Below, one piece after another: positions 18,834 through 61,993 of a stretch of DNA of 64,000 nucleotides (position 1 is its first letter; every line of letters starts with the position of its first letter). The notes under the pieces were generated by a model, which worked only from the letters and a program-made list of their open reading frames with translations, was not told the origin of the DNA and did not search any database. Both the position numbers and the translations under genes were made by a program. This DNA comes from a virus (taxonomy: Duplodnaviria; Caudoviricetes). The stretch covers positions 31,254 through 95,253 of IMG/VR virus record IMGVR_UViG_2600254917_000001. One strand, given 5' to 3'.

Positions 18834-19085
18834 GGTGCCTCCTTAGTTTTCGCCGGAGGCTAACTTAAATGCACCGCGCGGTGTATTTATGTGCAATGAG
18901 CTCGATTTAGGAATATGTAAAGGTTGATGCACATAAAATATGTATCTTATGCATTCAATATAAATCTAAGGTGCATTTGATAGGTGTATTTTGTGATTGC
19001 CACAAAATAATAAAGTGTTAGTATAGGATTATGTGTCGCCGTCCGCCGCTTGACCTTCATTAACGGCTTCGAGTAGCGTGATAAA

Positions 19086-19165
19086 GCACCAGCAAAATCT
19101 GGTGCCGGGATTGGCGTCCCGGAAATGGTTACAGGCGACACAGACGCGCCAGCGTCTTTTTTTTT
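19086..19165 (+). ncRNA. c4: C4 antisense RNA, copy 1 (loops TTGGCGT / GTTACAGG)
   Basis: GCACCAGCAAAATCTGGTGC-CGGGA..TCCCG scaffold, terminator-like 3' end; TTGACC..TAGCGT promoter. Confidence 0.85.
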
Positions 19166-19194
19166 GTGTCAGTGCTCTTGCACACCTATAGAAT

Positions 19195-19330
19195 TATGGT
19201 GGCTCGGGCAGGGCCACCGAAAGGTGGGCCGGTTTCCTGTAACGCCGGTTACGCCAACCCTGTTCGGGCCATCACCATGAATTGGCGTTCGTGTTGATGG
19301 TTATCATGACCGTTACAGGAGACTGCCTTC
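19195..19330 (+). promoter_or_regulatory. C4 target leader (a/b elements), copy 1
   Basis: CCTGTAAC and ACGCCAA complementary to C4-1 loops; sense copies TTGGCGT and GTTACAGG before the RBS. Confidence 0.8.
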
Positions 19331-19810
19331 ATGGCTACCACCCCTACCCAAACTCAGCCGTCATCTGACGAACTGGCCTACTTGGCACTTAACGCGCTGC
19401 GTTTCTCGATGTACATCAGCCTGTCAGATCCGGCCTGCGCTGAAGCATTAGCAACACGAATCCTTTTAACCAATCCATCAGAAAATCATTCCACATTAAG
19501 CGACAACCAGCTCCAGCTCGATGCCGTAAAGCGCGCGATATGGCGCGCATGGGATATGTCACCGGTTGTCACAGACTACCGCCGTGCATGGCTGCAGGAC
19601 GACGATCTGGACCTGTCACCAGACGATGCGCTTCCCGTTCTCTTTGCGAAGTTCTCTCAGCTGCGTACGTTGATCAGCTGCGCAGAAAAGCTGCTGGAGC
19701 CGCTCGGCAGCAATACGTATCTCGAAGACGTGCGCCAGCTGCTCGGAACCGCGTCGGACATTGCTGGTGGCGCGCTCGTCATGTCAGTGTTTGATGGGGA
19801 GGCAGCATGA
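19331..19810 (+). CDS. Conserved first gene of C4-controlled operon (Icd position), copy 1
   Basis: 159 aa, closely paralogous to 33588 and 61487 ORFs. Confidence 0.75.
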   Translation: MATTPTQTQPSSDELAYLALNALRFSMYISLSDPACAEALATRILLTNPSENHSTLSDNQLQLDAVKRAIWRAWDMSPVVTDYRRAWLQDDDLDLSPDDALPVLFAKFSQLRTLISCAEKLLEPLGSNTYLEDVRQLLGTASDIAGGALVMSVFDGEAA

Positions 19811-20118
19811 AATCTATCCACGTAAACTTTCATGGTACCGAGCTGTTTATCATCGAGCACAACGGCGAACCGTATACACCGATGAAACCGATCGTTGAAG
19901 GAATGGGGCTGGACTGGAAAAGTCAGTTGGTTAAGTTTAACAAGCGGTTTAACTCAACTATGGTGGAAATCACCATGGTTGCAGCAGACGATAAATCCCG
20001 CGGTATGATCTGTCTTCCGCTGCGCAAGCTTGTTGCGTGGCTAAACAGCATTAGCGCGAACAAAGTAAAGCCGGAGCTACGAAACCGCCTGCTGCAATGC
20101 CAGGAGGGTATCGCATGA
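19807..20118 (+). CDS. Phage antirepressor N-terminal domain protein (P22 Ant N-like)
   Basis: VNFHGTELF..HNGEPYTPMKPIVEGMGLDWKSQ..CLPLRKL.AWL.SI..NKV. Confidence 0.8.
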   Translation: MKSIHVNFHGTELFIIEHNGEPYTPMKPIVEGMGLDWKSQLVKFNKRFNSTMVEITMVAADDKSRGMICLPLRKLVAWLNSISANKVKPELRNRLLQCQEGIA

Positions 20119-20855
20119 TGCTGGCAACCGAAGTGCGAATGACAAGCAGGGAGATTGCCGAACTAACGGGTAAACGACACCCAGATGTGAAGCGTGATAT
20201 CGACACTATGCTCGTTGAGCTCAATGAAGATGTGAGCAATTTTGCTCACATCTACTTGGACAGCATGAACCGGCAGCAAACTGAGTTCAGTCTCGATCGC
20301 CTGCATGTTGAATGCCTTCTTATGGGCTACAGTGCAACCCTGCGCATGAAGGTCCTTAAGCGCCTGAAAGAGCTCGAATCGCTCCAACAAGATGCGCCGG
20401 TGCCGTCGGTCCCCAGCAGCGCAGCCGACACGATCGCAGCTGGCGGAGCTCTGCTGGAAGTGAGCAGAAAATTACTCCACATATCGGATAGCAGCGTGCT
20501 CGCGGGGCTACGCAAACTGCAAAGCGCAGCTGGGCTGCCGGACCTGCTCCCGGGTTACGCCATCGATGCACCACCGTCCGCCACGGGCGGCAGCAGTGAG
20601 CCAACGGCGAGCCTTCGCCAGCTGCTGGTGGAGAACGGGGTGAAGATGTCCGCGCAAAAAGCGTATGCCCGCCTGGCGGAGCTGGGGATTGTCGAGCAGA
20701 AGACGCGGACCAGCACCCGCGGCGAAAAGCATTACTGGTGCCTGACGGCCAAGGGCATGGAGTACGGCAAGAACCTGACCGCGCCGGGGAACCCCCGCGC
20801 TACCCAGCCGCACTTCTTCACTTCGCGTTTCACTAGACTGGTTGAGCAGCTGTAA
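20115..20855 (+). CDS. Rha-family antirepressor-like protein, copy 1
   Basis: MTSREIAELTGKRHPDVKRDI Rha domain plus shared C-terminus GKNLTAPGNPRATQPHF. Confidence 0.8.
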   Translation: MMLATEVRMTSREIAELTGKRHPDVKRDIDTMLVELNEDVSNFAHIYLDSMNRQQTEFSLDRLHVECLLMGYSATLRMKVLKRLKELESLQQDAPVPSVPSSAADTIAAGGALLEVSRKLLHISDSSVLAGLRKLQSAAGLPDLLPGYAIDAPPSATGGSSEPTASLRQLLVENGVKMSAQKAYARLAELGIVEQKTRTSTRGEKHYWCLTAKGMEYGKNLTAPGNPRATQPHFFTSRFTRLVEQL

Positions 20856-20979
20856 TCAGTGAATGGTGCCGGGCTTAGGAGTAACGAAGCCCGGCCTTCG
20901 TAAATTAAACTGGTAGGTTGAAAGGCAAGGGCAAGTTGGCCAATATGGGCTGTTGATAATTCATAAGGAGAATGCCGTA

Positions 20980-21693
20980 ATGGATTGGCCCAAAAAGTAT
21001 AACGGAATTGGTGATACTGTTCGCCGTGCCGCATTAAATGAATTTGATGTCGAAGCCATACTGAAAACAACTTTACTCCCTGGACAGCAAAAGACCGCTT
21101 ATCACGGAGGCCTGATAACTACTGATTATTATGTATTTCAATTTCAATCCATCACTCATCCAAATCAGTCAGGATCATTTTGTTGTGGCGAACATGCTGC
21201 TCAAGGGTGGTTCAACTTAACATTCCAAAACACGGAATTGATCCCCTCTTACAACCCCATTACTGGAGCCAGCAGGGGCGGCGGGGCTGGTGGTGGAAAT
21301 GGCGGGAACGGGAACGTCCAAAACCCTGTAAACAGGGATATGCGTAACCTGATAAAGTGTCTTATGACTTACATTTCCTTCACAGACAACACGCTCAACA
21401 GTTCTGGTGGTGAGTCAAGCGCAGTAAGAGTGTTGAATGGTCTCCTACAGAACATAAATAATCCTCCAACTGTTTCTCAAATCCGAAGCGTGAACACCAT
21501 TCTTGCAAAAACTTTTCAAAATGCTAAATATGTAGCGCTTAATATTAAAACCTATTCTGACTTGGTTGCGCATAAAGAACAACAACACGGCGTCACTATT
21601 AAGAAAATAAATGTAGCTCCTTTCAATTTGCACATTCAGAATAACAGGAATAATAGTCCAACATACACCTACCCACATCCGGCATCATTCTAA
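20980..21693 (+). CDS. Hypothetical protein (AT-rich accessory gene)
   Basis: AAGGAG RBS; FCCGEHAA motif and Gly-rich linker. Confidence 0.65.
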   Translation: MDWPKKYNGIGDTVRRAALNEFDVEAILKTTLLPGQQKTAYHGGLITTDYYVFQFQSITHPNQSGSFCCGEHAAQGWFNLTFQNTELIPSYNPITGASRGGGAGGGNGGNGNVQNPVNRDMRNLIKCLMTYISFTDNTLNSSGGESSAVRVLNGLLQNINNPPTVSQIRSVNTILAKTFQNAKYVALNIKTYSDLVAHKEQQHGVTIKKINVAPFNLHIQNNRNNSPTYTYPHPASF

Positions 21694-21996
21694 ACATTGT
21701 GTGCAGGTGGTGGTTCAAGCGACCCACCACCTATGCATACCCGCATTATCCTCATATTTTATGCATCTCAAGTGCTTACATGATATGCATTATAAATGCA
21801 TATTGAATGCATTAGTGCTTGTTTTCATTTCTTTAAATAATAAACCAATCCTCATTCATTCTTGTATTCAATTAGTCAATGGGCCAGGTGCCTTCATTTA
21901 TTGACTTTAATCATCTTTTATTCTGAAACCCCCGCTTCCCCACACAAAAAAGCTTTGTTTTTTTTGCCCTGTTTGCATAATGACCTCACCGAAGAT

Positions 21997-22013
21997 AATG
22001 TTTAGTGAGATAT
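21997..22013 (-). promoter_or_regulatory. Putative C1 operator at start of early operon
   Basis: Identical to the 5435 operator (reverse complement). Confidence 0.7.
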
Positions 22014-22027
22014 TATAAGAGGGTGAA

Positions 22028-22210
22028 ATGTCAGCCAAAAACAATCTCTTGGCTTCGCGTGATTTTGTGAAGCAAAAACAACATGTAAACGTACGTGTTA
22101 AGAAGTCAACCATTCTTGGTGTTCTTTCGCGTCTGGTTTTACTTGCTCCTGCAATCTTTCTTTGTGTCTTTTTTATGATGGCTGTTTACGAGCATGCCAT
22201 TGGTCTTTGA
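22028..22210 (+). CDS. Small membrane hypothetical protein
   Basis: GAGG RBS; C-terminal TM segment. Confidence 0.5.
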   Translation: MSAKNNLLASRDFVKQKQHVNVRVKKSTILGVLSRLVLLAPAIFLCVFFMMAVYEHAIGL

Positions 22211-22422
22211 TTCAAACGGCGCAATGAGGTAGCGCTAATCCGTTCTTTAAAAATCAGGAAAAAGAGGTCGCTATGTCAAGTGAGTATAATTTAACTACCG
22301 CGTTTCAGGGCGTTCAACCGCATGCACTTATCTGGTTTATTGCATATTACGCAGGGAAACAGAGTGGGAAACGGTCGAAAAGAAAGAAGCGCGGTCATTC
22401 ACGGAAAGCATAATACTCGAAA

Positions 22423-22665
22423 ATGCGTTTATTAAATAAATGTGTGAAAGGGACAGTGCAGCATGAAGCTGCGGCCCTTGCCTTAAGTGAGCATTTCAAA
22501 AAATACGGCAACTACGGTATTTCCGAGCGTACTTACACATACAGGGTTCGAATTAAAGGCGAGATCGTTTCTATTCGAATAGTTAACTCAACCCGTTCAT
22601 ATGTTGCTCACCCCAGTAATGGTGCACGCAGGCTTGTAAGACTGTGGGAGGAAAATCGCGCCTGA
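22423..22665 (+). CDS. Phage hypothetical protein
   Basis: 80 aa in co-directional early operon. Confidence 0.55.
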   Translation: MRLLNKCVKGTVQHEAAALALSEHFKKYGNYGISERTYTYRVRIKGEIVSIRIVNSTRSYVAHPSNGARRLVRLWEENRA

Positions 22666-23102
22666 GCATTGGCGCGTCGCAGCTAACAGACAGGGCGCTT
22701 TGGTACCCCTCCGTGTTTCTCCATGCACGCCTGAGCGTCCTGCCTGTTATCTGCGTTGCAGTTAACAAGCACTTGAAACCACTTAATCTACAGGGAAGCG
22801 GGTCAGTGGCCCGATATCTGCAAAGGCTTAAACACTGGAGCAGTACAGAACTGGAACTGTATTACCGACTCAGCGCCAGCCGGGGCGTTACCCGGCATTT
22901 TTCTTCAAAAGGAATAGCCAAATGGAACTTCTTAAAGCTGCCGGTCAGGCTGCGACATGCATTTTCATTGTCATGATCGCTATGTTTTTCACAATTCAGT
23001 TTCATTAACTGCGAGCCTGGTTGACCACGATGTATTAGCCGATCCTGCTGGCGTTTTGAAGGTCGAACAGGGACTTAATTCCCATACAGGAATAGTTAGA
23101 AA

Positions 23103-23711
23103 ATGGCCCAAAAGGTAAAAAAGCCGCTAAAGGCGTTTCGGATTGATGGTTATGAATACTGCATCATTCGATTCCATTCACATGCTCTCGCCGCAAGGCG
23201 GGAAGGGGCTGAAGAGTTGGAGGATGATTTCGATTCAGTGACGTGCAAACGTGCCCCAGAGTTTGATTCATACGCGCCTCTGGGGAGAGTGCCTCGCAAA
23301 GCCCTGGTGGAGGTTCATGGCTGGTGGCAGGAATGCACATATTGTTCAAGCCATGTTTCAGAGGATAACGCGGACCGTGTTTGGTCAGCTGACGATGAGC
23401 AAGTCTATTGCTCCCCTCTGTGTATGCACAGTGATGCCATTCGTGAAGAAGCTGATCGTTCTGAAAAACTTAAAAGGGAGGCGGAGGAGGCCGAGGCCAT
23501 TGAACTGACCAAAGCAAAGTTTAAAGGGATTGAAAACGTTGTTGCGTACAGCCGGTGCCATCCTCTCCGTGTCTCCTTTTCCTTCCCGGGCGGGATAGGC
23601 CGGGTCACATGGGAGCCTGGCGCACCTTCGGTTAGCATAGTGCCGTCTGATAGTGCCGCCTGGCGCATGTTTATGCAAACGCAGCATCAGGAAGGTAAAA
23701 AGGAGGCGTAA
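23103..23711 (+). CDS. Phage hypothetical protein with Cys motifs
   Basis: GWWQECTYC and YCSPLC; RBS present. Confidence 0.65.
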   Translation: MAQKVKKPLKAFRIDGYEYCIIRFHSHALAARREGAEELEDDFDSVTCKRAPEFDSYAPLGRVPRKALVEVHGWWQECTYCSSHVSEDNADRVWSADDEQVYCSPLCMHSDAIREEADRSEKLKREAEEAEAIELTKAKFKGIENVVAYSRCHPLRVSFSFPGGIGRVTWEPGAPSVSIVPSDSAAWRMFMQTQHQEGKKEA

Positions 23712-23713
23712 GT

Positions 23714-23935
23714 ATGGCCATTCGAAGTCAACCGCCTGATGGTATTAAGCAGAAGGCGAAGCGTCTTCTTCAGCTATACAGGGAGCGACTTAAGATCCCA
23801 AGAAAGTCGAAAAAGATGGCTTACCTTTCATTCGAAGTTGGCCCCAGATGGCGTTTGTTGTCGAAAGATAACGGCCAACACTGGTCGTTGCTCAGTCACT
23901 CTGAATACAACATGGCCATTAACGGAAAACGATGA
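23714..23935 (+). CDS. ParE-like small protein
   Basis: LSFEVGPRWRLLSKDNG..W.LLSHSEYN; AGGAGG RBS. Confidence 0.55.
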   Translation: MAIRSQPPDGIKQKAKRLLQLYRERLKIPRKSKKMAYLSFEVGPRWRLLSKDNGQHWSLLSHSEYNMAINGKR

Positions 23936-24168
23936 CTTATTCAGTCAAATCCCGCTGCCGTTCTTCCCTCTCCCGATTGCAAAACTCCCATGGACATGAT
24001 TACCGCTGGCACGTCGATTGTCAGTGTCATGTTTGCTGTGTTTGCGGTACTGCAGAGCACCGTAATGGGACGTTTTTGTATGTCGGGAAGTATTCAAAAA
24101 CTGAACCGCCATGCGAAGGAAACCATCTTGGAAGGCTGAACTGGTTAGCGCAGGCCAAAGATGGTTAG
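23932..24168 (+). CDS. Cys/His-rich hypothetical protein
   Basis: ATGA coupling with upstream gene. Confidence 0.5.
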   Translation: MTYSVKSRCRSSLSRLQNSHGHDYRWHVDCQCHVCCVCGTAEHRNGTFLYVGKYSKTEPPCEGNHLGRLNWLAQAKDG

Positions 24169-24183
24169 CAGATAAGGACAGCT

Positions 24184-24498
24184 ATGCACACTATTCATCC
24201 TGGAAAGTTATACATTGCCAATTCCCATTACAGCGAGTTCCCGGACGTGCTTGTCACTCTGGAGCTTTGCCGCGCCTGCGCGCGCCTTGAAGGTCGAAAG
24301 ATCGCTGCATCTTTGCAGGCCTGTGCCTTGGCATTAATGGCACGCGTCGAGAATGAGGCGCTTCGGAACACCCTTGAAACCATGAGCACTAGCCGCTTCC
24401 CCGAATCGCAGATCACGCGAATACGTGGATGCATTTCCCGTATGGAATCGGTGGCTGGGCGCAAACTCAACGAGATAAAGAGGATGAACGTACGGTGA
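24184..24498 (+). CDS. Phage hypothetical protein
   Basis: AAGGA RBS; coupled to next gene. Confidence 0.6.
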   Translation: MHTIHPGKLYIANSHYSEFPDVLVTLELCRACARLEGRKIAASLQACALALMARVENEALRNTLETMSTSRFPESQITRIRGCISRMESVAGRKLNEIKRMNVR

Positions 24499-25202
24499 AA
24501 GAAAAACCGATATTTTTTTCTGAAGAAATGGTCCAGGCCGTTCTGGCCGGTAGGAAAACCCAGACGCGCAGACCGGTAAAGTTCAAGTTCCGGGATGGCC
24601 GTCGCGATGCAAGTACGCTTCAAGTAGGTAACTACCGCACTGGCCATCCTCGTTCCGGTTTTGTCCTGCGTAGTGGTAATGGTGGATGCTGGCAGGATGT
24701 TACTCACCCGCTTCAGTGCCCGTATGGAAATAAAGGCGATCGTCTGTGGGTGCGCGAGACCTGGAGCGATGTGAATTATGACGGCTCTGAAGCCATTGCC
24801 TACCGTGCTGACAGTGGAGTGAACCTGCTTTCGGATGACATAACCTTCCTGGATGACGTTGGTGTTTTCAACCCCCACGACGAGCGGCTGGCAAAGCTGC
24901 ATTTCGGTAACTGGTACCAGGATCTTATTGCAGGCACCGAAGGCAGGTGGCGACCGTCTATCCACATGCCGCGTTGGGCCTCCCGCATCCAGCTGGAAAT
25001 AACAAACGTTCGAATCGAGCGGCTCAAGCATGTCCCGCGTGAGGGAGTGATTGCTGAGGGCTATCCCGTTGAGCGCCTGGAGTGGGCGAACGAATACGAT
25101 CCCTTCATCTGGTTCAAGGAGCTATGGGGGGCGATTTACGGGGATAAGCACTGGGACACGAACCCTTGGGTGTGGGTTGTCGAGTTCCGGAGGTGCGAAT
25201 GA
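24495..25202 (+). CDS. ASCH-like phage protein
   Basis: KPIFFSEEMVQAVLAGRKTQTRR..CPYG..GDRLWVRETW..WRPSIHMPRWASRI..NPWVWVVEF. Confidence 0.75.
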   Translation: MKEKPIFFSEEMVQAVLAGRKTQTRRPVKFKFRDGRRDASTLQVGNYRTGHPRSGFVLRSGNGGCWQDVTHPLQCPYGNKGDRLWVRETWSDVNYDGSEAIAYRADSGVNLLSDDITFLDDVGVFNPHDERLAKLHFGNWYQDLIAGTEGRWRPSIHMPRWASRIQLEITNVRIERLKHVPREGVIAEGYPVERLEWANEYDPFIWFKELWGAIYGDKHWDTNPWVWVVEFRRCE

Positions 25203-25417
25203 TACCGCTGCCTACATGCCCGAAGTGTGGCCTTCAGGCCCAGATCCGGTTGCGTGAGCGCGGTATGAACATGGGTAGCAGTGAGCTTCGTTGCCCGGAG
25301 GGCCACTTCAGAGTGGGGACGAGTTTCCACTCAGGCATGAAAAACTGGGCTCGTAACTGGCTACTGGAAGAGTGGGAAAAAAAAGTGAAGGAAGCTGCGG
25401 AGGCTAACAATGCATGA
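25199..25417 (+). CDS. Small zinc-ribbon-like protein
   Basis: CPKCG..CPEGH; ATGA coupling. Confidence 0.55.
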   Translation: MIPLPTCPKCGLQAQIRLRERGMNMGSSELRCPEGHFRVGTSFHSGMKNWARNWLLEEWEKKVKEAAEANNA

Positions 25418-26879: not shown

Positions 26880-27015
26880 GCGCAGACAGGCAGCGTTTGA
26901 GATAAGCCCCGGCATGAGTCTTCAACCCAGGCTTTCCTTTTCAGCCCCGATCATCATTTCTTTATCGATTCCTCTTTTCAATTTCAGCCAGGCGCGATGC
27001 GCCAGGAGCATCCTT

Positions 27016-27852
27016 ATGTCCAAAAAAGGTCAAACCTTCACTATCAACATGTGGCGTCCAGATCCTGAAGAGACGGCGAACATGTGGAAACTTTTCCACA
27101 GCGCGGAGCGAGTACAGGATCGTTGGTCAATAAACACGGTACCTCAAATTGCTGAGGAGCTGGCTTCCACGAACCTCTCCCGCGAGGAAAAATTGTTTCT
27201 ACTGCGCGCCTGGCAAATGCTGGTGGATGACAAAGCAGGCTTCGGACGCTTCATGGGGGCCTTTGATTGCTATGTCCACAATGTCCAGGATCCTACTGCT
27301 GAGTACGTGGCATATAAGCCTGAGCTTAAGGCGTGTATTGAAGACGGTCTGATCTTTGAGGAGGTGCTGGAGGCTTACCAGGGCGCTCAGCAGCGCATCA
27401 TAGAGCTGGAGGCGCTCACTTATTACCTTAAATTGCCGGATGAGCTCGACTTCGACTGTGAGTATGAGCGCGGCGGCCATAGTCCCTCTGATGAGCCGTT
27501 CCTGCGCGGGTGCGTAGAGGGCTGGAATCTGGCGATTGGAAAAGTAAGCCAACTCAATGGTGCCACTGGCCAACGACCAACCGCCTGGTACACCGACGAT
27601 CATAAAACAGATAAATCGGCCACAACCTACGATCCTGCTGTCGCGTTGCGCTGGAAGTCAAAGAGCTGGCCAGTCACTCCGCTCTATGAAAACCCACCAG
27701 CTCAGCTATCACCGGCTTTTACAGGCGATTATTTGGATGAACAGCGTGCGGCCGTCATCGAGAGTGTTGCTTCAAAGCGCTGGGGTGTCGGCTATGTATT
27801 TGATGGGCTGTTGGCCATCGCCAACAAGCTCCGGCATGGGGTGGGGCATTAA
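27016..27852 (+). CDS. Mosaic phage early hypothetical protein
   Basis: AGGAG RBS; AQQRIIELEA and PLY..PP segments typical of mosaic early proteins. Confidence 0.6.
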   Translation: MSKKGQTFTINMWRPDPEETANMWKLFHSAERVQDRWSINTVPQIAEELASTNLSREEKLFLLRAWQMLVDDKAGFGRFMGAFDCYVHNVQDPTAEYVAYKPELKACIEDGLIFEEVLEAYQGAQQRIIELEALTYYLKLPDELDFDCEYERGGHSPSDEPFLRGCVEGWNLAIGKVSQLNGATGQRPTAWYTDDHKTDKSATTYDPAVALRWKSKSWPVTPLYENPPAQLSPAFTGDYLDEQRAAVIESVASKRWGVGYVFDGLLAIANKLRHGVGH

Positions 27853-27949
27853 ATTCTTGCCAAAAAATGGGGGCTATTCATGGGATTTCATTGATAACTT
27901 TAGGGAAAAGATGTTTCATTGGTGCACAGGTTAACTATGGAGAGTTTAA

Positions 27950-29000: not shown

Positions 29001-29065
29001 GATCTGGCAAGTGCCTTTCTGTGAAGTGATGAAATTTTATTCATTCTTAAATGGGAGTGGAATGT

Positions 29066-29524: not shown

Positions 29525-29749
29525 TAATTATCCTATTAAAACGTGATTAATCAGTTACTTTGACCCCCAGTTTGATTTCTTCACTGGGGGTTTTTTATTG
29601 GTTTATTTTCGGAGAGATTCAAACGCAGCGGAGGAACATAGTAAAAAACTGGAATGATGGCCGTAAAAATGAAAACTCGACAATAAATTGTACGAAAACA
29701 GTGATTATTATTCAGGGATTAAATACGCAAGGAGAGAGGAAGGGAAGTA

Positions 29750-30178: not shown

Positions 30179-30300
30179 ACCTACACCGCTTTAAACCTAC
30201 CCGTTCAACCGCCCCGTGCTGAAAAGCGCGGGCGGGGTTGTTGACAGGCCTGCATTACCCATGCAGAGCGCCTGACAGGAATTTAAGAGAAGAATCACCA

Positions 30301-32215: not shown

Positions 32216-32240
32216 CATTATAAAGCAGCTCAATCTCAGT

Positions 32241-32321
32241 ATGGTGTCTCGGGCAGGGCCACCGAAAGGTGGGCCGGATGTCGCCGCGCCGGTTGTTGCA
32301 ACCCTGTTCGAGTCACCGCCA
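32241..32321 (+). promoter_or_regulatory. Orphan C4-target-like hairpin element
   Basis: Near-identical scaffold to 33451-33533, without adjacent C4 or downstream operon. Confidence 0.6.
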
Positions 32322-32330
32322 GCGATAAAC

Positions 32331-33140: not shown

Positions 33141-33343
33141 ATTGCTACGCCCCGTTCCGTTTGATATCGGTTAATCATAGCACTGCATTGAATAGCCACA
33201 AAATACCTACATCATACATATGGTAAATGCATATCAGATGTATGTTGTAAGCATTTTATGAAACGTTTAGTATAGTATCGCTTTTGATGTCGCCGTTTCA
33301 GAAATCCTTGACGCTACTCCGGTTAATCAGGTAGCGTATTGAT

Positions 33344-33420
33344 GCGCCAGCAAAATCTGGCGCCGGGATTGAGACCCCGGAAATACACATGGCGACACAG
33401 ACGCGCCCGCGTCTTTTTTT
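33344..33420 (+). ncRNA. c4: C4 antisense RNA, copy 2 (loops TTGAGAC / ACACATGG)
   Basis: Same scaffold as copy 1; targets GTCTCAA and CCGTGTGT at about 33490-33512. Confidence 0.85.
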
Positions 33421-33587
33421 GTGTCAGCGCCTGCGCGCACCTATAGAATAATGGTGGCTCGGGCAGGGCCACCGAAAGGTGGGCCGGTTTCCGTGTGTGC
33501 CGGTAGTCTCAACCCTGTTCGAGTCACCACCAGCGAGCTTGAGACCTCCGGTGGTGATCTTCAAAATTACACACGGAGACTGCCATC

Positions 33588-34067
33588 ATGGCTACCATCC
33601 CTACCCAGACTTTACCCTCAGACAGCCAGCTATCCTCTCTGGCGCTTAACGCGCTGCGCGCATCGATGTTCCTGAGCATCTCAGATCCTGCGTGTGCAGA
33701 AACACTGGCCGCGCGTTTACTGGCAACCGGCAATACAGAAAATCTCTCCACATTAAGCGAGGCACAGCTCCAGCTGGATGCTGTTAAGCGCGCTATCTGG
33801 CGTGCGTGGGATATGTCACCGACACTGGTGGACTATCGCCGTGCCTGGCTGCTTGACGACGATCTGGACCTGTCGTCGGAAGAAGCGTTTCCCGTACTCC
33901 ATGCGAAGTTCTCACAGTTGCGTACGCTAATCAGCTGCGCGGAAAAGCTGTTGGAGCCACTGGGCACCAACACGTACCTGGAAGACGTGCGCCAGCTGCT
34001 CGGTACCGCCTCCGACATCGCTGGTGGCGCGCTGGCCATGGCTGTGTTTGACGAGGTGGCCGCATGA
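33588..34067 (+). CDS. Conserved first gene of C4-controlled operon, copy 2
   Basis: Paralog of 19331 ORF. Confidence 0.75.
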   Translation: MATIPTQTLPSDSQLSSLALNALRASMFLSISDPACAETLAARLLATGNTENLSTLSEAQLQLDAVKRAIWRAWDMSPTLVDYRRAWLLDDDLDLSSEEAFPVLHAKFSQLRTLISCAEKLLEPLGTNTYLEDVRQLLGTASDIAGGALAMAVFDEVAA

Positions 34068-34822
34068 ACCTTTCAAATAACGAGGTAGGCTTCATCGACA
34101 GCCAGGATCTATTGAAAATGGTAAACCTGGCACGTAAGCAAAGCGGTGAGAAGTCGATCAGGAACAATGATTTTATCAGCCGCGTAAAGGATGAATTGGA
34201 TGGTGAGACCTACGAAATTTTCGTAGGTCGTAAAAATGGTGCAGAGATAGAACAGGTCTCAATGTCCTTCAAGCAAGCCCTGCGAGTCGCCGCGCGCGAA
34301 TCAAAGGCCGTCCGCCGTACGCTGGTGGATAAGCTGGAGTCGATGCAGCAACCCGCGCATGCGCCGGTACCAGCACTTACCACCAGCACCGCCGATACGA
34401 TCGCTGCGGGCGTGGCATTGCTGGATGGCACCAGAAAATTACTCCACATATCGGATAGCAGCGTGCTCGCGGCCCTGCGCAAACTGCAAAGCGCAGCTGG
34501 GCTACCTGACCTGCTTCCTGGCTATGCGGTCGACGCGCCGCTGTCCGCCACGGGCGGCAGCAGTGAGCCAACATCGAGCCTTCGCCAGCTGCTTGCCGAG
34601 CACGGCGTTACGCTGTCACCGCAAAAAGCGTATGCCCGCCTCGTGGAGCTGGGGATTGTCGAGCAGAAGACGCGAACCAGCACCAGGGGCGAGAAACATT
34701 ACTGGTGCCTGACGGCCAGGGGGCTGGAGTACGGTAAAAACCTGACGTCGCCAGGCAATCCGCGCGCCACGCAGCCGCACTTTTACGATCATCGGTTCGA
34801 CCAGCTGGTGGCGTTGATGTAA
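34064..34822 (+). CDS. Antirepressor-like protein, copy 2 (different N-terminal domain)
   Basis: IDSQDLLKMVNLARK..RVAARESKAVRR N-domain plus shared C-terminal domain. Confidence 0.75.
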   Translation: MNLSNNEVGFIDSQDLLKMVNLARKQSGEKSIRNNDFISRVKDELDGETYEIFVGRKNGAEIEQVSMSFKQALRVAARESKAVRRTLVDKLESMQQPAHAPVPALTTSTADTIAAGVALLDGTRKLLHISDSSVLAALRKLQSAAGLPDLLPGYAVDAPLSATGGSSEPTSSLRQLLAEHGVTLSPQKAYARLVELGIVEQKTRTSTRGEKHYWCLTARGLEYGKNLTSPGNPRATQPHFYDHRFDQLVALM

Positions 34823-41704: not shown

Positions 41705-43203
41705 TGGCTCACGGTCGCAAAAAGATAAGGTGCGTCACGTCAGATCCTCGTTGGTATGAGCTGGTCCGTAAGTACCGATACCAGTGGGGGCTTGCTGCAG
41801 TGCAGCTCTTCGGTAAAACGCCTACCTGGCAGCAAGACCTGATACTCGACTCAGTACAAGATTCCGGCAGCCGAACGACGGTTTCATCCGGCCACGGTAC
41901 CGGTAAATCGGATATGGCCAGCATCATGGTTATGCTGTTCCTAATCCTCTTCCCACATGCCCGCGTTGTGCTGGTTGCGACGAAAATCGGGCAGGTCCGT
42001 AACGGTATTTTCAAATACATGCGGCAAAACTGGGCTGAGTGTACGAAGCGCTATCCGTGGCTGGCGGAGTACTTCATCCTTACCGACACTGCGTTTTACG
42101 AGCGCACCCAAAAAGGCTCGTGGGAAGTTGTGGCGAAGGGTTTCCGTCTGGGGAATGAGGAAGCCCTTGCCGGTGAGCATGCAAAGCATCTTTTCTACAT
42201 CATTGACGAAGCCTCAGGGGTATCTGATAAGGCGATCGGCGTTATCAAAGGGGCGCTGACGCAGGAAGACAACCGCCTCTTACTCACCTCACAGCCTACT
42301 CGCCCGAGCGGCCACTTCTACGATAGCCATCACTCGCTTAAACGCACTCCAGCCTATCCTGAGGGCTATAACGCGATCGTTCTCAACAGTGAAGAGTCAC
42401 CGCTTGTCACCCTGAACTTTATCAAAGAGAAGCTGGCCGAGTATGGTGGGCGTGATAGCCCTGAATACATGATCAAGGTACTCGGTAGGTTCCCGTCGAT
42501 GTCGAACGAGTTCCTGTTAGGGCTTGATGAATGTGAGCGAGCTGCACGGCGCCCAATTCGGCTTAAAAAGGGTTGGGGATGGGTGGCATGTTGTGACGTC
42601 GGGAACGGCCGAGACAGTTCCGTGCTTTCCATATTCAAAATATCCGGTAACCGTAACCGGCGTCGCGTGATACCGCACCGCGTCATTGAATATGCGGGTA
42701 CCATCGACGCTGTGAAGTTCGCCGACGTGATCGTTGCTGAGTGCCGCGCCGACGTATACCCGAATATAAGCATTGTGATCGATGGGGATGGTATCGGTCA
42801 TAACACAGCTACGCTGGTGGAACGCGCAGGGCTGCAGGTGCAGCGCATACGATGGGGGAAACGTATGCACAGCAAGCAAGATAAGAGCAGATTTATCAAT
42901 CAGCGCGCCTATGCAAATATCGCAGCTCGTGACGCACTGCGCAGCGGGCGGTTACGGCTCGATCCTCAGTCCAAAGTAGTGCAGCAGGCATCAAAGATAC
43001 CGGCATCCCTTAATGAGCTGGGGCAATGGGTCATTATGAAGAAAGAGGTTATGCGCCAGAAGTTCAATATAAAATCACCCGACGTCTGGGACACGTATTG
43101 CTTTGCATTCCTGGCGAACTACGTCCCGGCCAACCAGGACGCGTATTATGACGATGATAGAGAAGAGGCTATGCGCCGGTACCTCAAAGGGCAAGCCGCT
43201 TAA
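41704..43203 (+). CDS. pacB: Terminase large subunit PacB
   Basis: SGHGTGKS Walker A, IIDEA Walker B, KSPDVWD. Confidence 0.92.
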
Positions 43204-44015
43204 GCTTTCTGTTGCTTGGCCTTTTCTTGCTTACGCTTAGCCACCAGCTTACGCTGAGCTTTGCGTACGTTCTCGCGGCGCATCTCAGCACGCAGCCGTT
43301 CTTCATAATCAGCAGTGATCGCGTCAACGATCTCAAGGTCATAAAGCTTACGGCTCTGCATAGCAATGCACGGAACAGGCTCCACCTGGTCATATACCGA
43401 ATAGCGCAACTGGGGCGTTGAGAGCTCCACGCCAGTTGAATCGAGATTCTTTTCACGAATGAACATGCCGTGCGCGCTGACGTGTACCGTTTCGCGCTTC
43501 GACTGACCGACAACGTAAAGATAAACCTGCATATCACGGTAGCCACCTTGGCGCGCACGGAAGCGATGGTCGGGATCATATTTCCCGAACCGCTCTTTCT
43601 CTTCCATGAGCGCATCAAGCAACTCGTTATCGCCGTCCTTTTTAGCCCTTTTGATCGCCATGTCTATGCGCTTAAGGACATCGGTCGTAATGTAGTTTCT
43701 TACTACGGTCGCTGTATTGAAGGTGATGCGTGCGCCGCGCACGTTCTCATGTATGAACGGTATGGGGTAAAGATCTGAAGAGCTGCGCGGAAAGCGTTTG
43801 TCGTCGTAAGAGCTGAGCTCTTCAACAAGTGCTTTCCACTTCTCAATGCGGGCAACCCAAGTCATGTATTCTGCTTCAGAAACGATAACGACCGGTCGAG
43901 ATGCAACACCGGTTTCATCGACATCGGCAAACCTGGCACTTTTATGAGCAGCTTTCAGGAACTCACTTTTGTGCTGGAGGAATTGCTTATAAGTAGCTTC
44001 AACCGATGGTGACAT
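43200..44015 (-). CDS. c1: C1 primary repressor
   Basis: [27 protein letters not shown] resemble P1 C1; convergent with pacB as in P1. Confidence 0.8.
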
Positions 44016-60154: not shown

Positions 60155-60243
60155 TAATATGCATCATACCGTTCAATAAGTAAGGCTCCCACTGGGAGCC
60201 TTTTTTATTCGTTAAAGCCGTTCCACAGCGGCCACAACATCCA

Positions 60244-61011
60244 TTACAGTAGATTCGCCAGCTCAACGAAACAGCGCTGGTAGAAGTGCGGCTGTGTAGC
60301 CCGCGGATTACCCGGCGCGGTTAGATTCTTGCCATATTGCAGCCCGGTCTCCGTAAAGCACCAATAGTGCTTTTCCCCACGCGTGCTGCTTCTGGTCTTC
60401 TGCTCGACAATCCCCAGCTCCGCCAGGCGTGCGTACGCTTTCTGCGAGGAGAGCTTAATACCACGTTCTGTTAGAAGCTGGCGCAGGCTGGCCGTTGGCT
60501 CGCTACTGCCGCCAGTAGCATCGGGCGGCGCGTCTATAGCGTAACCCGGGAGGAGATCCGGAAGGCCTGCAGCGCTCTGCAACTTGCGCAGCCCGGCAAG
60601 GACGCTGCTATCAGATAGGTGGAGTAATTTCCTGCTCCCATCCAGCAGCGCGACGCCCGCGGCAATCGTGTCGACCGTACTGGTGGTCGGAGCTGGAGTA
60701 TTATTTGTCGTAGTACCGTAAATCACTGCCTCAAGTTCACGCAGTCGCTTCAGTACCTTCATGCGCAAAGTCGCGCTGTAGCCCATAAGCAGGCATTCGA
60801 CATGCAAGCGGTCGAGATAATATTCTCTTCGTGTACGGTTCATTGTGTCTTGGTATGGAACTACATTTTTAGAGATATCCCCAATGCTGGGGTTATCTCT
60901 GTAAAGTTCTTCCATCATGTTATCAATGTCTCGAACAACATGATCGTGGCGCTTACCTGTTAGATTCGCTATCTCTCGGCTACCCATACGCACATCAGTT
61001 GAGAGCATCAT
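60244..61011 (-). CDS. Rha-family antirepressor-like protein, copy 3
   Basis: MGSREIANLTGKRHDHVVRDI plus shared C-terminal domain. Confidence 0.8.
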   Translation of the reverse strand: MMLSTDVRMGSREIANLTGKRHDHVVRDIDNMMEELYRDNPSIGDISKNVVPYQDTMNRTRREYYLDRLHVECLLMGYSATLRMKVLKRLRELEAVIYGTTTNNTPAPTTSTVDTIAAGVALLDGSRKLLHLSDSSVLAGLRKLQSAAGLPDLLPGYAIDAPPDATGGSSEPTASLRQLLTERGIKLSSQKAYARLAELGIVEQKTRSSTRGEKHYWCFTETGLQYGKNLTAPGNPRATQPHFYQRCFVELANLL

Positions 61012-61487
61012 GCCGCCACCTCCTCAAACACACGCATGCTCATCGCGCCACCAGCTATGTCGCCCGCAGTGCCCAGCAGCTGGCGCACGTCCTCAAGAAA
61101 CGCGTTGGTACCGAGCGGTTCAAGGATCCGCCGCGCGCATCTTATAAGCGTACGCAGCTGGCTAAACTTCGCGAACAGAACGGGAAGAGCCTCTTCAGGC
61201 GTTAGGTCTAGGTCATCGTCAAACAGATACGCGTGCCGGAAATCGGCCAACCTTGGTGCCGTATCCCACGCGCGCCAGATAGCGCGCTTGATCGCATCGA
61301 GCTGCAGCTGGTTGTTGCTGAGAGTGGAATCCGTTGCTGGTGGAGCGGTTAGAAGAATACGTGTGGCCAATGCTTCGACACAGACCGGGTCAGTGATGCT
61401 CAGGAACATTGATGCGCGCAGCGCGTTGAGGGCAAGTGCAGATAGCTGACTATCTGAAGGTAAAGTCTGGGTAGGGATGGTAGCCAT
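61008..61487 (-). CDS. Conserved first gene of C4-controlled operon, copy 3
   Basis: Paralog of 19331 and 33588 ORFs. Confidence 0.75.
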   Translation of the reverse strand: MATIPTQTLPSDSQLSALALNALRASMFLSITDPVCVEALATRILLTAPPATDSTLSNNQLQLDAIKRAIWRAWDTAPRLADFRHAYLFDDDLDLTPEEALPVLFAKFSQLRTLIRCARRILEPLGTNAFLEDVRQLLGTAGDIAGGAMSMRVFEEVAA

Positions 61488-61650
61488 GATGGCAGTCTCC
61501 TTGTGCTGGGTAAACCTCACCACAGAAGAGGCTAATCTTGCTGGTGGTGAGCTGAACAGGGTTAGCCTTACCGGTGCACAAGGTTCCCGGCGCGGATTTC
61601 TCCGCCCCTGCCCAACCCACCATAATTCAGGCGAGCGTTGGCGCTGACAA

Positions 61651-61730
61651 CAAAAAAGACGCTGGCGCGTCTATATGTCGCCTTGTGCATTTCCGGGAGG
61701 CTAATCCCGACACCAGATTTTGCTGGTGCC
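61651..61730 (-). ncRNA. c4: C4 antisense RNA, copy 3 (loops TTAGCCT / TGCACAAGG)
   Basis: Same scaffold; targets AGGCTAA and CCTTGTGCA in the downstream leader. Confidence 0.85.
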
Positions 61731-61793
61731 CTTATACGCTACAAGACCAAAACGGCCGTAGCAAGGCTTTTTTACAAGGCAAGACGCTGGCGA

Positions 61794-61993
61794 ATATCAT
61801 ACTAAACATTTTTTTAAATGCATAGTAAGGATACGCATCAGGCATGCATTAAAAATGCATTATAAGCACTTTTCATAATCACAATATGCATATGATGTAC
61901 ACACCTATAATTCTGTAAAGTAATTAAGCAGTTCAAAATAGCTTCATTTACGCCCTCGCCACCTTTATCATCAGTGATATCCTACTAAACATT
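61794..61993 (+). promoter_or_regulatory. Two putative C1 operators (61794-61810, 61977-61993) in a divergent promoter region
   Basis: ATATCATACTAAACATT and ATATCCTACTAAACATT. Confidence 0.7.

What the first reader, a model, noticed from the sequence alone, without database searches (positions are those of the whole stretch)
19013..61810. Three orthogonal C4-RNA/antirepressor (ImmI-like) switches in one phage-plasmid
Seen: three cassettes (about 19.0-20.9 kb +, 33.3-34.8 kb +, 61.8-60.2 kb -) share the layout operator, promoter with -10 TAGCGT, C4 RNA, target leader, a paralogous 159-aa gene, then an antirepressor-like gene. The RNA scaffold is conserved, but the recognition loops differ and co-vary with their own targets: TTGGCGT/ACGCCAA + GTTACAGG/CCTGTAAC; TTGAGAC/GTCTCAA + ACACATGG/CCGTGTGT; TTAGCCT/AGGCTAA + TGCACAAGG/CCTTGTGCA. 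Known: P1 and P7 each carry one immI, and heteroimmunity comes from such loop differences. Inference: this element runs a three-key RNA lock. It could silence incoming relatives of three C4 types, and a resident rival would need all three C4 specificities to silence it.
Basis: partly seen in the sequence, partly recalled or inferred. Interest (0 to 1): 0.9.

Follow-up and report, generated by a model that had tools for sequence, protein, structure and literature searches.

The report
Six C4 RNAs in one phage-plasmid
A distant relative of phage P1 carries four complete copies of the known P1-type switch in which a small antisense RNA locks an antirepressor gene, each copy with its own address code, plus two extra lock RNAs without a gene; the design is known and stacking of such copies proved common in phage databases, so this is a rich example and not a new kind of system.

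Summary
Rfam finds C4 antisense RNA and an IsrK-type RNA in all three cassettes. Each is followed by a paralogous 159-aa gene and an antirepressor-type gene.

The two recognition boxes co-vary at three places per cassette: decoy RNA, C4 and mRNA leader. Predicted cognate pairing is -23.6 to -27.0 kcal/mol; non-cognate is -6 to -17.

The count of three is too low:
- The 95-kb record holds a fourth complete cassette outside the window.
- It also holds two orphan C4 RNAs with no target in the element, one at window 32237-32323.
- That makes six C4 and four IsrK-type RNAs.
- The fourth cassette shares its a-box with cassette 1, so orthogonality is not complete.

The element is a distant P1 relative, with a C1 homologue, a P1-like gene order and a dispersed 17-bp operator-like motif.

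Of 42 C4-positive viral contigs, 15 carry two or more C4 genes and 3 carry three or four, all differently keyed where I checked. This scan had already reported such stacks on other DNA. I found no paper describing multi-keyed cassettes within one phage.

Verdict: a real, probably functional multi-specificity immunity set and a new member of a known kind. The "lock" function is untested.

The parts
18997..19027 (+). Cassette 1: degenerate copy of the dispersed 17-bp operator-like motif, overlapping a sigma-70-like promoter (TTGCCA-16-TAGTAT)
   Evidence: Promoter scan. Motif family. This copy has more than 3 mismatches to the consensus but keeps the TTAGTAT core.
19050..19078 (+). Cassette 1: promoter TTGACC-N17-TAGCGT, ending 7 nt before the isrK-type RNA
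   Evidence: Sequence. GTAGCGT is invariant in all four cassettes and in the E. kobei homologues.
19086..19162 (+). Cassette 1: isrK-type decoy RNA with a1 (TTGGCGT, 19111) in a hairpin loop, b1 (GTTACAGG, 19128) and an intrinsic terminator
   Evidence: RF01394, 79.5 bits. Terminator. Box positions.
19192..19279 (+). Cassette 1: C4 antisense RNA; b' loop CCTGTAAC, a' strand ACGCCAA
   Evidence: RF01695, 80.3 bits, full-length match. Loops parsed.
19280..19330 (+). Cassette 1: target leader with a2 (19282) and b2 (19312), b2 overlapping the Shine-Dalgarno sequence of the 159-aa gene
   Evidence: Cognate a+b duplex energy -27.0 kcal/mol.
19331..19810 (+). Cassette 1: 159-aa gene in the position of P1 icd
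   Evidence: No Pfam or PHROG family. No similarity to P1 Icd. dN/dS 0.13-0.26 among paralogues.
19807..20118 (+). Cassette 1 only: 103-aa P22 antirepressor N-terminal domain protein
   Evidence: PF10547, E = 5e-33. phrog_524 anti-repressor Ant.
20115..20855 (+). Cassette 1: 246-aa antirepressor-type protein with a Rha N-domain and the C-terminal domain shared by all four cassettes
   Evidence: PF09669. phrog_129 and phrog_10324. Alignment.
32237..32323 (+). Orphan C4 RNA (oA): a' TTGTTGCAA, b' loop ATGTCGCCGCG. It has no isrK, no leader and no ORF, and lies just after a terminator and convergent with a 269-aa gene.
   Evidence: RF01695, 60.8 bits. Canonical fold, z = -3.7. No a+b target in the genome. 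Same a' as a cassette of E. kobei plasmid NZ_CP156932.1.
33262..33278 (+). Cassette 2: 17-bp operator-like motif
   Evidence: 3 mismatches.
33308..33337 (+). Cassette 2: promoter TTGACG-N18-TAGCGT
   Evidence: Sequence. Alignment.
33344..33419 (+). Cassette 2: isrK-type decoy RNA; a1 TTGAGAC (33369), b1 ACACATGG (33385)
   Evidence: RF01394, 76.5 bits. Box positions.
33447..33534 (+). Cassette 2: C4 antisense RNA; b' CCGTGTGT, a' GTCTCAA
   Evidence: RF01695, 80.1 bits.
33535..33587 (+). Cassette 2: leader; a2 (33539) in a hairpin loop, b2 ACACACGG (33569) at the Shine-Dalgarno sequence
   Evidence: Fold. Cognate energy -26.0 kcal/mol.
33588..34067 (+). Cassette 2: 159-aa gene; its stop overlaps the next start (ATGA)
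34064..34822 (+). Cassette 2: 252-aa antirepressor-type protein. The N-terminal ~105 aa are 54% identical to residues 106-212 of P1 Ant1; the C-terminal domain is the shared one.
   Evidence: E = 1e-32. phrog_1726 and phrog_129.
43200..44015 (-). Context: homologue of the P1 C1 repressor, the presumed target of the antirepressors and presumed binder of the 17-bp motif
   Evidence: 28% identity to P1 C1 over 239 aa, E = 2e-25. It lies between a terminase-like gene and a Cre-like recombinase, as in P1.
60244..61011 (-). Cassette 3: 255-aa antirepressor-type protein with a Rha N-domain and the shared C-terminal domain
   Evidence: PF09669, E = 2e-14.. Alignment.
61008..61487 (-). Cassette 3: 159-aa gene
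61488..61539 (-). Cassette 3: leader; a2 TTAGCCT (61529), b2 GCACAAGG (61499)
   Evidence: Cognate energy -23.6 kcal/mol.
61540..61627 (-). Cassette 3: C4 antisense RNA; b' CCTTGTGC(A), a' AGGCTAA. Hairpin 1 shows compensatory changes.
   Evidence: RF01695, 71.6 bits.
61652..61729 (-). Cassette 3: isrK-type decoy RNA; a1 (61698), b1 TGCACAAGG (61681)
   Evidence: RF01394, 75.3 bits.
61736..61810 (-). Cassette 3: perfect 17-bp operator-like motif (61794-61810) and -10 TAGCGT (61736-61741)
   Evidence: 0 mismatches. Sequence.

Best explanation
The 95-kb element is a distant P1-type phage-plasmid. It carries four self-contained immI-type operons and two stand-alone C4 genes.

Order of parts in each operon:
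- a copy of a dispersed 17-bp motif, probably the operator of the element's C1 homologue;
- a promoter with -10 TAGCGT;
- a short terminated IsrK-type RNA that carries copies (a1, b1) of the target boxes;
- the C4 antisense RNA, probably cut out of read-through transcripts;
- a leader whose boxes a2 and b2 (b2 over the ribosome-binding site) pair with the a' strand and b' loop of C4;
- a 159-aa gene;
- a translationally coupled antirepressor-type gene.

Inferred working. In the lysogen each C4 blocks translation of its own 159-aa gene, and through coupling its own antirepressor. The IsrK-type RNA acts as a mimic that can titrate C4 when the promoter fires. Because the boxes differ, each lock answers mainly to its own key.

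Expected consequences. As a resident, the element would silence antirepressor genes of incoming relatives that carry any of its codes. As an invader, it would still make antirepressor unless the resident covers all its codes.

Shown here: the RNA families, their anatomy, three-way co-variation of the boxes, predicted cognate preference, intact genes under purifying selection, and C1 and Ant homology.

Inferred: processing, repression, the decoy role, antirepressor activity against C1, and the ecological pay-off.
For: RNA families:
- Rfam C4 and isrK score above gathering in every cassette.

Anatomy and homology:
- The layout is the same as annotated P1 immI: Oc4, P2c4/P1c4, a1, b1, c4, a2, b2, icd, ant.
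- C1 homologue, E = 2e-25, in the P1-syntenic place.
- The cassette 2 antirepressor is 54% identical to the central domain of P1 Ant1.
- Rha and P22_AR_N domains occur in the others.

Co-variation and pairing:
- Boxes co-vary at three sites per cassette and are unique in the genome.
- Box columns are enriched for variation (p = 5e-6).
- Cognate a+b energy is -23.6 to -27.0 kcal/mol; non-cognate is -6.0 to -17.3.
- All 15 C4 RNAs parsed from five elements rank their own leader first.

Selection and layout:
- The 159-aa paralogues have dN/dS 0.13-0.26 and dS 0.4-1.1.
- Stop and start overlap (ATGA) between the 159-aa gene and ant.
- Cassettes 2 and 3 are followed by convergent genes, so they are closed units.

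Operator-like motif:
- The 17-bp motif has 10 hits in the window against 0.25 expected, and 12 in the genome.

Published mechanism:
- C4 blocks ant translation and underlies P1/P7 heteroimmunity (PMC12197685, PMC5320573).
- IsrK in trans activates translation of the coupled orf45-anrP, and a processed C4-position RNA, STnc1160, exists (PMC4825925).
Against: - No expression, processing or interaction data.
- Cassette 1 and the fourth cassette share the a-box, and cassette 2's C4 has -15.4 kcal/mol on cassette 3's leader. Cross-talk cannot be excluded.
- All four antirepressor-type proteins share a more than 85% identical C-terminal half. The outputs may therefore be redundant, and it is not shown that any of them binds C1.
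- The 159-aa protein has no known family. Its role beyond translational coupling is unknown.
- The duplex energies ignore intramolecular structure and kinetics.
Confidence: 0.6

Rival explanations
1. Insulated paralogous circuits with different outputs. The cassettes exist because their antirepressor-type proteins do different jobs or answer to different inputs. Their N-domains differ: a P1-Ant-like domain in cassettes 2 and 4, Rha in 1 and 3, and an extra P22_AR_N protein in 1. They might, for instance, attack repressors of other prophages in the cell. On this view the distinct RNA codes serve only to stop the paralogous circuits from interfering with each other, not to widen immunity.
For: - Two unrelated N-terminal domain types, plus an extra P22_AR_N gene in cassette 1.
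- Operator and promoter quality differs between cassettes. The 17-mer is degenerate in cassette 1 and perfect in cassette 3. The internal TAGAAT promoter is absent in cassette 3.
- The duplications are old, with dS up to 1.1.
Against: - The C-terminal half is nearly identical in all four proteins, which suggests a common partner.
- The orphan C4 genes have no circuit to insulate.
- Equivalent cassettes in three related elements keep one box and change the other. That pattern fits between-element discrimination better.
Confidence: 0.25
2. Passive accumulation. The C4/IsrK-antirepressor module is a widespread recombining cassette. Copy number reflects mosaic history, not selection for several keys, and the orphans are remnants of cassettes that lost their genes.
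For: - The module occurs in hundreds of plasmid and phage records.
- Stacks of 2-4 copies are common.
- The same a-codes recur in unrelated phages. TTGGCGT is in at least six cassettes, and both orphan a' strands match cassettes elsewhere.
- One E. kobei homologue has lost the ATG of its 159-aa gene.
- Venturini et al. noted an extra icd-ant homologue set in the P1-like plasmid pSvP1 (PMC6906374).
Against: - All four cassettes are intact and under purifying selection.
- All six C4 RNAs keep full-length, high-scoring folds.
- No two complete cassettes in this element share both boxes.
Confidence: 0.15

Closest known systems
immI operon of phages P1 and P7 (Oc4/Op51, P51a/b, a1 b1, c4 RNA, a2 b2, icd, ant1/ant2)
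   Same: - Same order of parts.
- Same RNA family, RF01695.
- b2 lies over the ribosome-binding site of a coupled upstream ORF.
- A C1-type repressor is encoded in the P1-syntenic place.
- The antirepressors of cassettes 2 and 4 share the central Ant1/Ant2 domain.
- Box differences as the basis of heteroimmunity is established for P1/P7 (PMC12197685, PMC5320573).
   Different: - P1 has one C4 gene; this element has six.
- The coupled ORF is a 159-aa protein unrelated to Icd.
- The a1/b1 segment is a separate terminated IsrK-type RNA.
- The antirepressors have a different C-terminal domain, and in two cassettes a Rha N-domain.
- The operator sequence differs from P1's.
Gifsy-1 isrK - orf45 (STnc1160) - anrP locus of Salmonella (Hershko-Shalev et al. 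2016, PMC4825925)
   Same: - A terminated IsrK RNA (RF01394 match at 75-80 bits) is followed by read-through into a C4-position RNA.
- A short coupled ORF and an antirepressor-like gene follow.
- Complementarity between IsrK and the downstream RNA is part of the mechanism.
   Different: - Gifsy-1 has a single locus.
- In Gifsy-1 the coupled ORF (45 aa) overlaps the C4-position RNA; here a separate 159-aa gene follows the leader.
- That paper explains activation by alternative mRNA structures and does not treat the downstream RNA as C4. The decoy reading used here is my inference.
Tandem and dispersed multi-C4 cassettes in lambdoid prophages and P1-type plasmids
   Same: - Two to four C4 cassettes per element, each with its own a/b code and cognate targets. 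Examples are IMG/VR contigs G027 (4 copies) and G003 (3), phage PPyecE_EH1910 LC567835.1 (2) and pEA4_97 (3).
   Different: - Those are mostly head-to-tail arrays with a 650-850 nt period and short ORFs.
- Here the cassettes are dispersed over a 95-kb P1-like genome, carry the 159-aa gene, and are accompanied by two orphan C4 genes.
- Six C4 genes is the highest count I saw.
C4-like Group 1 sRNAs of Acinetobacter baumannii (Weiss et al. 2016, PMC5320573)
   Same: Many C4-fold RNAs in one genome that differ in the a' region. The authors raise the idea that they target incoming phage.
   Different: Those are chromosomal sRNAs without adjacent antirepressor cassettes. Here four of six sit in complete cognate operons on a phage-plasmid.
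P4 CI RNA with seqA/seqC
   Same: A processed immunity RNA with complementary sites upstream and downstream. PMC4825925 notes this as a structural relative of IsrK.
   Different: P4 CI causes transcription termination of replication genes, and no antirepressor is involved. Not tested here.

Membership tests
C4 antisense RNA (Rfam RF01695) | Covariance-model score above the gathering threshold over the full model | tested here: met
   Six matches at 60.8-80.3 bits against a gathering score of 45, all covering model positions 1-87.
C4 antisense RNA (Rfam RF01695) | The b' loop and a' single strand are complementary to b2 (over the ribosome-binding site) and a2 of the downstream mRNA | tested here: met
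   Met for the four cassette C4 RNAs: 7-nt a pairs and 8-11-nt b pairs. Not met for the two orphans, which have no cognate target in the genome.
C4 antisense RNA (Rfam RF01695) | Released from a longer precursor by RNase P | not testable with these tools
   The 5' ends carry the ATGGTGG context (GGT), as at the P1 site described in PMC5320573. No RNA data could be obtained.
isrK / c4-a1b1 RNA (Rfam RF01394) | Covariance-model score above gathering, with a terminator hairpin and U-run | tested here: met
   Four matches at 75.3-79.5 bits against a gathering score of 50. Terminator found.
isrK / c4-a1b1 RNA (Rfam RF01394) | Carries copies of the target boxes (a1 = a2, b1 ~ b2) of the adjacent C4 | tested here: met
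   a1 is identical to a2 in all four cassettes. b1 matches b2 over 8-9 nt, with one G-U in cassette 2.
P1-type immI operon | C1-type repressor in the genome and a C1 operator at the operon promoter | tested here: inconclusive
   A C1 homologue is present. A dispersed 17-bp motif lies upstream of the cassettes. Binding is not tested, and the copy at cassette 1 is degenerate.
P1-type immI operon | icd as the translationally coupled ORF | tested here: not met
   The 159-aa protein has no similarity to P1 Icd and no Pfam or PHROG family. It keeps the position and the ATGA overlap.
P1-type immI operon | Ant1/Ant2-type antirepressor | tested here: inconclusive
   Cassettes 2 and 4 match the central domain of Ant1 (54% identity, E = 1e-32) but have a different C-terminal domain. 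Cassettes 1 and 3 have a Rha N-domain and only a weak match (E = 2e-4).
P1-like phage-plasmid | P1-type gene set and order | tested here: met
   pacB-like terminase, then the C1 homologue, then a Cre-like recombinase. The closest plasmid (85% DNA identity) encodes Rep, ParA, portal, head-processing protein, a 6.8-kb helicase gene, DnaB, a Phd/RelE-type pair and UmuDC-like genes. There is no near-identical DNA match to any phage record.

The most novel reading that the evidence does not exclude
The orphan C4 genes may be a stand-alone RNA immunity repertoire. On this reading they are locks kept without a gene of their own, to silence antirepressor (or decoy) RNAs of rival elements.

Leads:
- Orphan oA carries exactly the a' strand of a cassette in the related E. 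kobei plasmid NZ_CP156932.1. Its b' loop pairs with the conserved GGCGACA(U/C) stretch of IsrK-type RNAs; predicted energy on that rival's IsrK-type RNA is -21.7 kcal/mol.
- Orphan oB carries the a' strand of a cassette in an unrelated provirus, together with a generic anti-Shine-Dalgarno b' loop (UUCUCC).

If true, phage-plasmids would widen superinfection immunity by collecting guide-like RNAs against competitors' codes.
Probability: 0.15. Interest if true: 0.7.

Novelty: new member of a known kind. Interest (0 to 1): 0.4.

Why it matters
P1/P7 heteroimmunity is the textbook case of immunity specificity set by a few bases of an antisense RNA. This element, its two E. kobei relatives and the tandem arrays in proviruses show that natural phages often stack several differently keyed copies. 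As far as I could find, no paper analyses this. If the keys are truly independent, three things follow:
- Immunity groups among P1-like phage-plasmids, which carry resistance genes in Enterobacteriaceae, would be combinatorial instead of single-valued.
- That would help explain which elements can coexist or displace each other.
- The cassettes would be a ready-made set of natural orthogonal RNA repressor, decoy and target triplets for circuit design.

The finding is an incremental extension of a known mechanism.

Tried and rejected
1. RNAduplex on whole RNAs gave uniformly strong energies, because it pairs scaffold stems. I replaced it with box-only energies.
2. The BLAST copy-number estimate gave 646 plasmid records with 697 places and 296 phage records with 299 places. 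This suggested that nearly all elements have one copy. Infernal on whole contigs showed that BLAST misses diverged neighbours, so I withdrew that conclusion.
3. The MAFFT alignment of 11 cassettes (A4) split the b2 boxes with gaps. I therefore did not use the count of structure pairs and counted pairs by anchored parsing instead.
4. The 159-aa family:
   - No Pfam or PHROG hit.
   - No relatives in IMG/VR or GTDB representative genomes by the search for related loci.
   - No E. coli complete genome carries it.
   - AlphaFold2 gave mean pLDDT 50, all-helical, too poor for a fold search.
   - ESM Atlas gave nothing.
5. A PDB profile search with the antirepressor alignment gave no significant hit.
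6. The 69-aa ORF in the coi position has no similarity to P1 Coi.
7. An ATGCAT-type box search gave 52 hits against 33-47 in shuffles. The excess is weak, although clusters lie next to cassettes. I did not pursue it.

Full report
**What is there**

An Rfam scan of the window finds the C4 antisense RNA family (RF01695) at 19192-19279 (+), 33447-33534 (+) and 61540-61627 (-). All are full-length matches at 71.6-80.3 bits against a gathering score of 45. About 30 nt upstream of each lies a match to isrK (RF01394) at 75-80 bits.

Each RNA pair is followed by a leader, a 159-aa ORF and an antirepressor-type gene whose start overlaps the stop of the 159-aa ORF. I call them K1, K2 and K3.

- The segment between the promoter and C4 is a separate, terminated IsrK-type RNA that carries the a1/b1 copies of the target boxes.
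- There is a fourth C4 in the window, at 32237-32323 (+, 60.8 bits).

**The whole element**

The window is positions 31254-95253 of a 95,253-bp virus record, estimated 95% complete. Searching that record gives six C4 and four isrK matches. Outside the window, at record positions about 14.4-15.9 kb (-), lies a fourth complete cassette, K4. Just upstream of it, at 16124-16207 (-), is a second C4 without an isrK, leader or ORF.

The element therefore has four complete cassettes and two orphan C4 genes:
- oA lies in the window.
- oB lies outside it.

Both orphans fold into the canonical three-helix C4 shape, with z-scores of -3.7 and -4.5.

**Recognition boxes**

| Cassette | a-box | b-box |
|---|---|---|
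| K1 | TTGGCGT | GTTACAGG |
| K2 | TTGAGAC | ACACACGG (decoy copy ACACATGG, one G-U) |
| K3 | TTAGCCT | GCACAAGG |
| K4 | TTGGCGT (same as K1) | GTATACGA |

- In every cassette the same pair of boxes appears in the IsrK-type RNA, as the complement in C4 (b' in the loop of hairpin 2, a' in the single strand after it), and in the leader. There, b2 overlaps the Shine-Dalgarno sequence.
- Each b-box occurs in the 95-kb genome only at its own three sites.
- From the isrK 5' end to the start codon, 35 of 45 box columns vary among the four cassettes against 83 of 208 scaffold columns (Fisher p = 5e-6).

Duplex energies restricted to the boxes:

| Pairing | a+b energy, kcal/mol |
|---|---|
| Cognate (all four) | -23.6 to -27.0 |
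| Non-cognate (range) | -6.0 to -17.3 |
| K1 with K4 (shared a-box) | -16.4 and -17.3 |
| K2 C4 on K3 leader | -15.4 |

The same crude measure gives P1's own cognate pair only -19.0. Cross-talk for the K1/K4 and K2/K3 pairs therefore cannot be excluded.

I parsed 15 C4 RNAs from this element, two E. kobei plasmids, a lambdoid phage, P1 and a P1-type plasmid. Every one ranks its own leader first.

**The proteins**

- The 159-aa paralogues are 70-89% identical.
- They have dN/dS of 0.13-0.26 at dS of 0.4-1.1, so they are old copies kept as proteins.
- They match no Pfam or PHROG family and are not similar to P1 Icd.
- Only 20 clusters of this family exist among 5.8 billion proteins, on contigs of about 86-109 kb where long.
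- A structure prediction was too poor to use (pLDDT 50).

The last genes share a C-terminal half that is more than 85% identical (phrog_129). Their N-domains differ:
- K1 and K3 have Rha (PF09669).
- K2 and K4 have a domain 54% identical to residues 106-212 of P1 Ant1.
- K1 has an extra 103-aa P22_AR_N protein.

K2 and K3 are followed by convergent genes, so they are closed operons and not leaders of longer ones.

**What the element is**

Its nearest relatives are two non-mobilizable Enterobacter kobei plasmids: NZ_CP156932.1 (95.8 kb) and NZ_CP104726.1 (109 kb), at about 85% DNA identity. No phage record is close.

The annotated plasmid has a P1-like gene set: Rep, ParA, portal, head-processing protein, a 6.8-kb helicase gene, tail and baseplate genes, Dam, a tyrosine recombinase, terminase, DnaB, a Phd/RelE-type pair and UmuDC-like genes.

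In the window, a 270-aa protein at 43200-44012 (-) is 28% identical to P1 C1 (E = 2e-25). It lies between the terminase-like gene and a Cre-like recombinase, as c1 does in P1.

A 17-bp motif, AATGTTTAGTAKGATAT, occurs 10 times in the window against 0.25 expected, and 12 times in the genome. Its positions include:
- upstream of K2, K3 and K4;
- upstream of orphan oB;
- between the C1 homologue and the recombinase.

K1 has only a degenerate copy. The motif overlaps a sigma-70-like promoter. This matches the P1 picture of a dispersed asymmetric 17-bp C1 operator, with Oc4 at tandem c4 promoters. Binding is not tested.

**How it probably works**

P1's record annotates Oc4, two promoters, a1, b1, c4, a2, b2, icd and ant1/ant2 in that order. 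Published work establishes three points:
- C4 pairs with the ant mRNA around the ribosome-binding site, and box differences underlie P1/P7 heteroimmunity (PMC12197685, PMC5320573).
- C4 is cut from a precursor by RNase P (PMC5320573, citing Hartmann et al. 1995).
- In Gifsy-1, IsrK terminates partially, read-through gives the operon mRNA and a processed C4-position RNA, and IsrK in trans activates translation of the coupled orf45-anrP (PMC4825925).

From these I infer the following for each cassette here. C4 blocks translation of the 159-aa gene and, through coupling, of the antirepressor. The IsrK-type RNA, which carries the same boxes as the leader, can titrate C4 when the promoter is derepressed.

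With four codes, the element as a resident would silence incoming antirepressor genes of up to four (or six) specificities. As an invader it would escape a resident that lacks any one of its codes. It remains an inference.

**Is multi-C4 rare?**

My first estimate from BLAST suggested one copy per record. Notes from earlier runs of this scan claimed that stacking is common, so I tested this with Infernal:
- P1 has one C4.
- Three P1-type plasmids have one each, and pEA4_97 has three, two of which share a code.
- The two E. kobei relatives have three each, at positions equivalent to K1, K2 and K4.

I also searched 50 IMG/VR contigs picked by a C4-core DNA pattern. Forty-two were C4-positive:

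| C4 genes per contig | Contigs |
|---|---|
| 1 | 27 |
| 2 | 12 |
| 3 | 2 |
| 4 | 1 |

- The 4-copy contig and one of the two 3-copy contigs are tandem arrays. Of the cassettes my parser recovered (3 of 4 in the 4-copy array, all 3 in the other), each has cognate sites downstream and most have them upstream too. All b codes are distinct; two cassettes of the 4-copy array share an a code.
- Multi-keyed stacks are therefore common. Six C4 genes in one element is the largest number I saw, and dispersed cassettes with the 159-aa gene are specific to this small clade.

In the searchable literature I found:
- P1/P7 and Gifsy-1 single loci;
- a note of an extra icd-ant homologue set in pSvP1 (PMC6906374);
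- many C4-like sRNAs with differing a' regions in Acinetobacter baumannii, with the suggestion that they might target phage (PMC5320573);
- the motif discovery paper (PMC2864571).

None of these analyses several differently keyed cassettes within one phage.

**Evolution of the codes**

- The K1-equivalents of the three related elements keep b (GTTACAGG) but have three different a-boxes: TTGGCGT, TTGCAAC and TTCGAAC.
- The K2-equivalents keep a (TTGAGAC) and differ in b.
- The K4-equivalents keep b and differ in a. In NZ_CP156932.1 the ATG of the 159-aa gene is ATC.
- The same a-codes recur in unrelated phages.

Codes therefore look like a limited set of alleles reshuffled between elements. This fits selection for discrimination, but it also fits simple recombination.

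**The orphans**

Neither orphan has an a+b target in this genome.
- The a' strand of oA equals that of the K1-equivalent of NZ_CP156932.1.
- The b' loop of oA is not anti-Shine-Dalgarno. It pairs with the conserved GGCGACA(U/C) of IsrK-type RNAs, giving -21.7 kcal/mol on that plasmid's IsrK-type RNA but only -9.8 on its leader.
- The a' strand of oB equals that of a cassette in an unrelated provirus. Its b' loop, UUCUCC, is a generic anti-Shine-Dalgarno sequence.

These are leads for an immunity-only role. They are equally compatible with the orphans being remnants of lost cassettes.

**Verdict**

The mechanism is that of P1 immI and Gifsy-1 isrK. The multi-key reading is plausible but untested, and orthogonality is incomplete. 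The arrangement is common in sequence databases though apparently undescribed in papers. I rate it a new member of a known kind, of moderate interest.

Noticed in passing
window 5435, 12392, 21682, 21997, 33262, 39212, 44338, 46386, 61794, 61977 (17-mers): A dispersed asymmetric 17-bp motif, AATGTTTAGTAKGATAT, has 10 hits against 0.25 expected. It probably marks the regulon of the C1 homologue at 43200-44012 (-). One copy lies between that gene and the Cre-like recombinase.
   Followed up: partly
window 18874-18976, 21761-21801, 61685-61891; record 15999-16456: Clusters of (A/G)TGCA(T/C)-type boxes lie in the AT-rich DNA beside the cassettes. The genome-wide excess is weak (52 hits against 33-47 in shuffles).
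   Followed up: partly
L022 (NZ_CP156932.1 about 25386-25560): In the K4-equivalent cassette of this E. kobei plasmid the start codon of the 159-aa gene reads ATC, and the annotation shows shorter ORFs. The cassette looks as if it is decaying, while its C4 and its a2/b2 boxes remain matched.
   Followed up: no
L160 (IMG/VR contig G027, 39500-43400) and L161 (G003, 9000-11500): These are head-to-tail arrays of four and three C4 cassettes with a period of about 650-850 nt. Of the cassettes parsed (3 of 4 and 3 of 3), each has its own b code and cognate sites in the leader, and two in the 4-copy array share an a code. Each is followed by an ORF that begins MAT(I/T/V)PT, like the 159-aa gene.
   Followed up: partly
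window 32237-32323: The b' loop of orphan C4 oA (AUGUCGCC) is complementary to the conserved GGCGACA(U/C) segment just 3' of b1 in IsrK-type RNAs of several elements (-13 to -14.6 kcal/mol). In the predicted fold this loop is partly self-paired.
   Followed up: partly
L013/L019 (NZ_CP021957.1, 4839-4926 + and 11700-11787 -): A linear Klebsiella plasmid record has two equal-scoring C4 copies in inverted orientation 7 kb apart. This may be an inverted duplication or an assembly artefact.
   Followed up: no
L025/L026 (NZ_CP156932.1 39293-39577 and 68646-69128): The related phage-plasmid is annotated with a PAAR-domain protein and an Hcp-family type VI secretion protein. The region equivalent to the Hcp gene lies within the stretch matched by window 18000-38000.
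   Followed up: no
window 19166-19194: A sigma-70-like promoter (GTGTCA-17-TAGAAT) lies directly before C4 in K1. It is conserved in K2 and K4 but lost in K3 through a 3-nt gap. C4 may therefore have its own promoter in some cassettes, in addition to read-through from the isrK promoter.
   Followed up: partly
window 44120-44329 (-): A 69-aa ORF sits in the position of P1 coi, between the C1 homologue and the recombinase. It has no detectable similarity to Coi and no PHROG family.
   Followed up: partly
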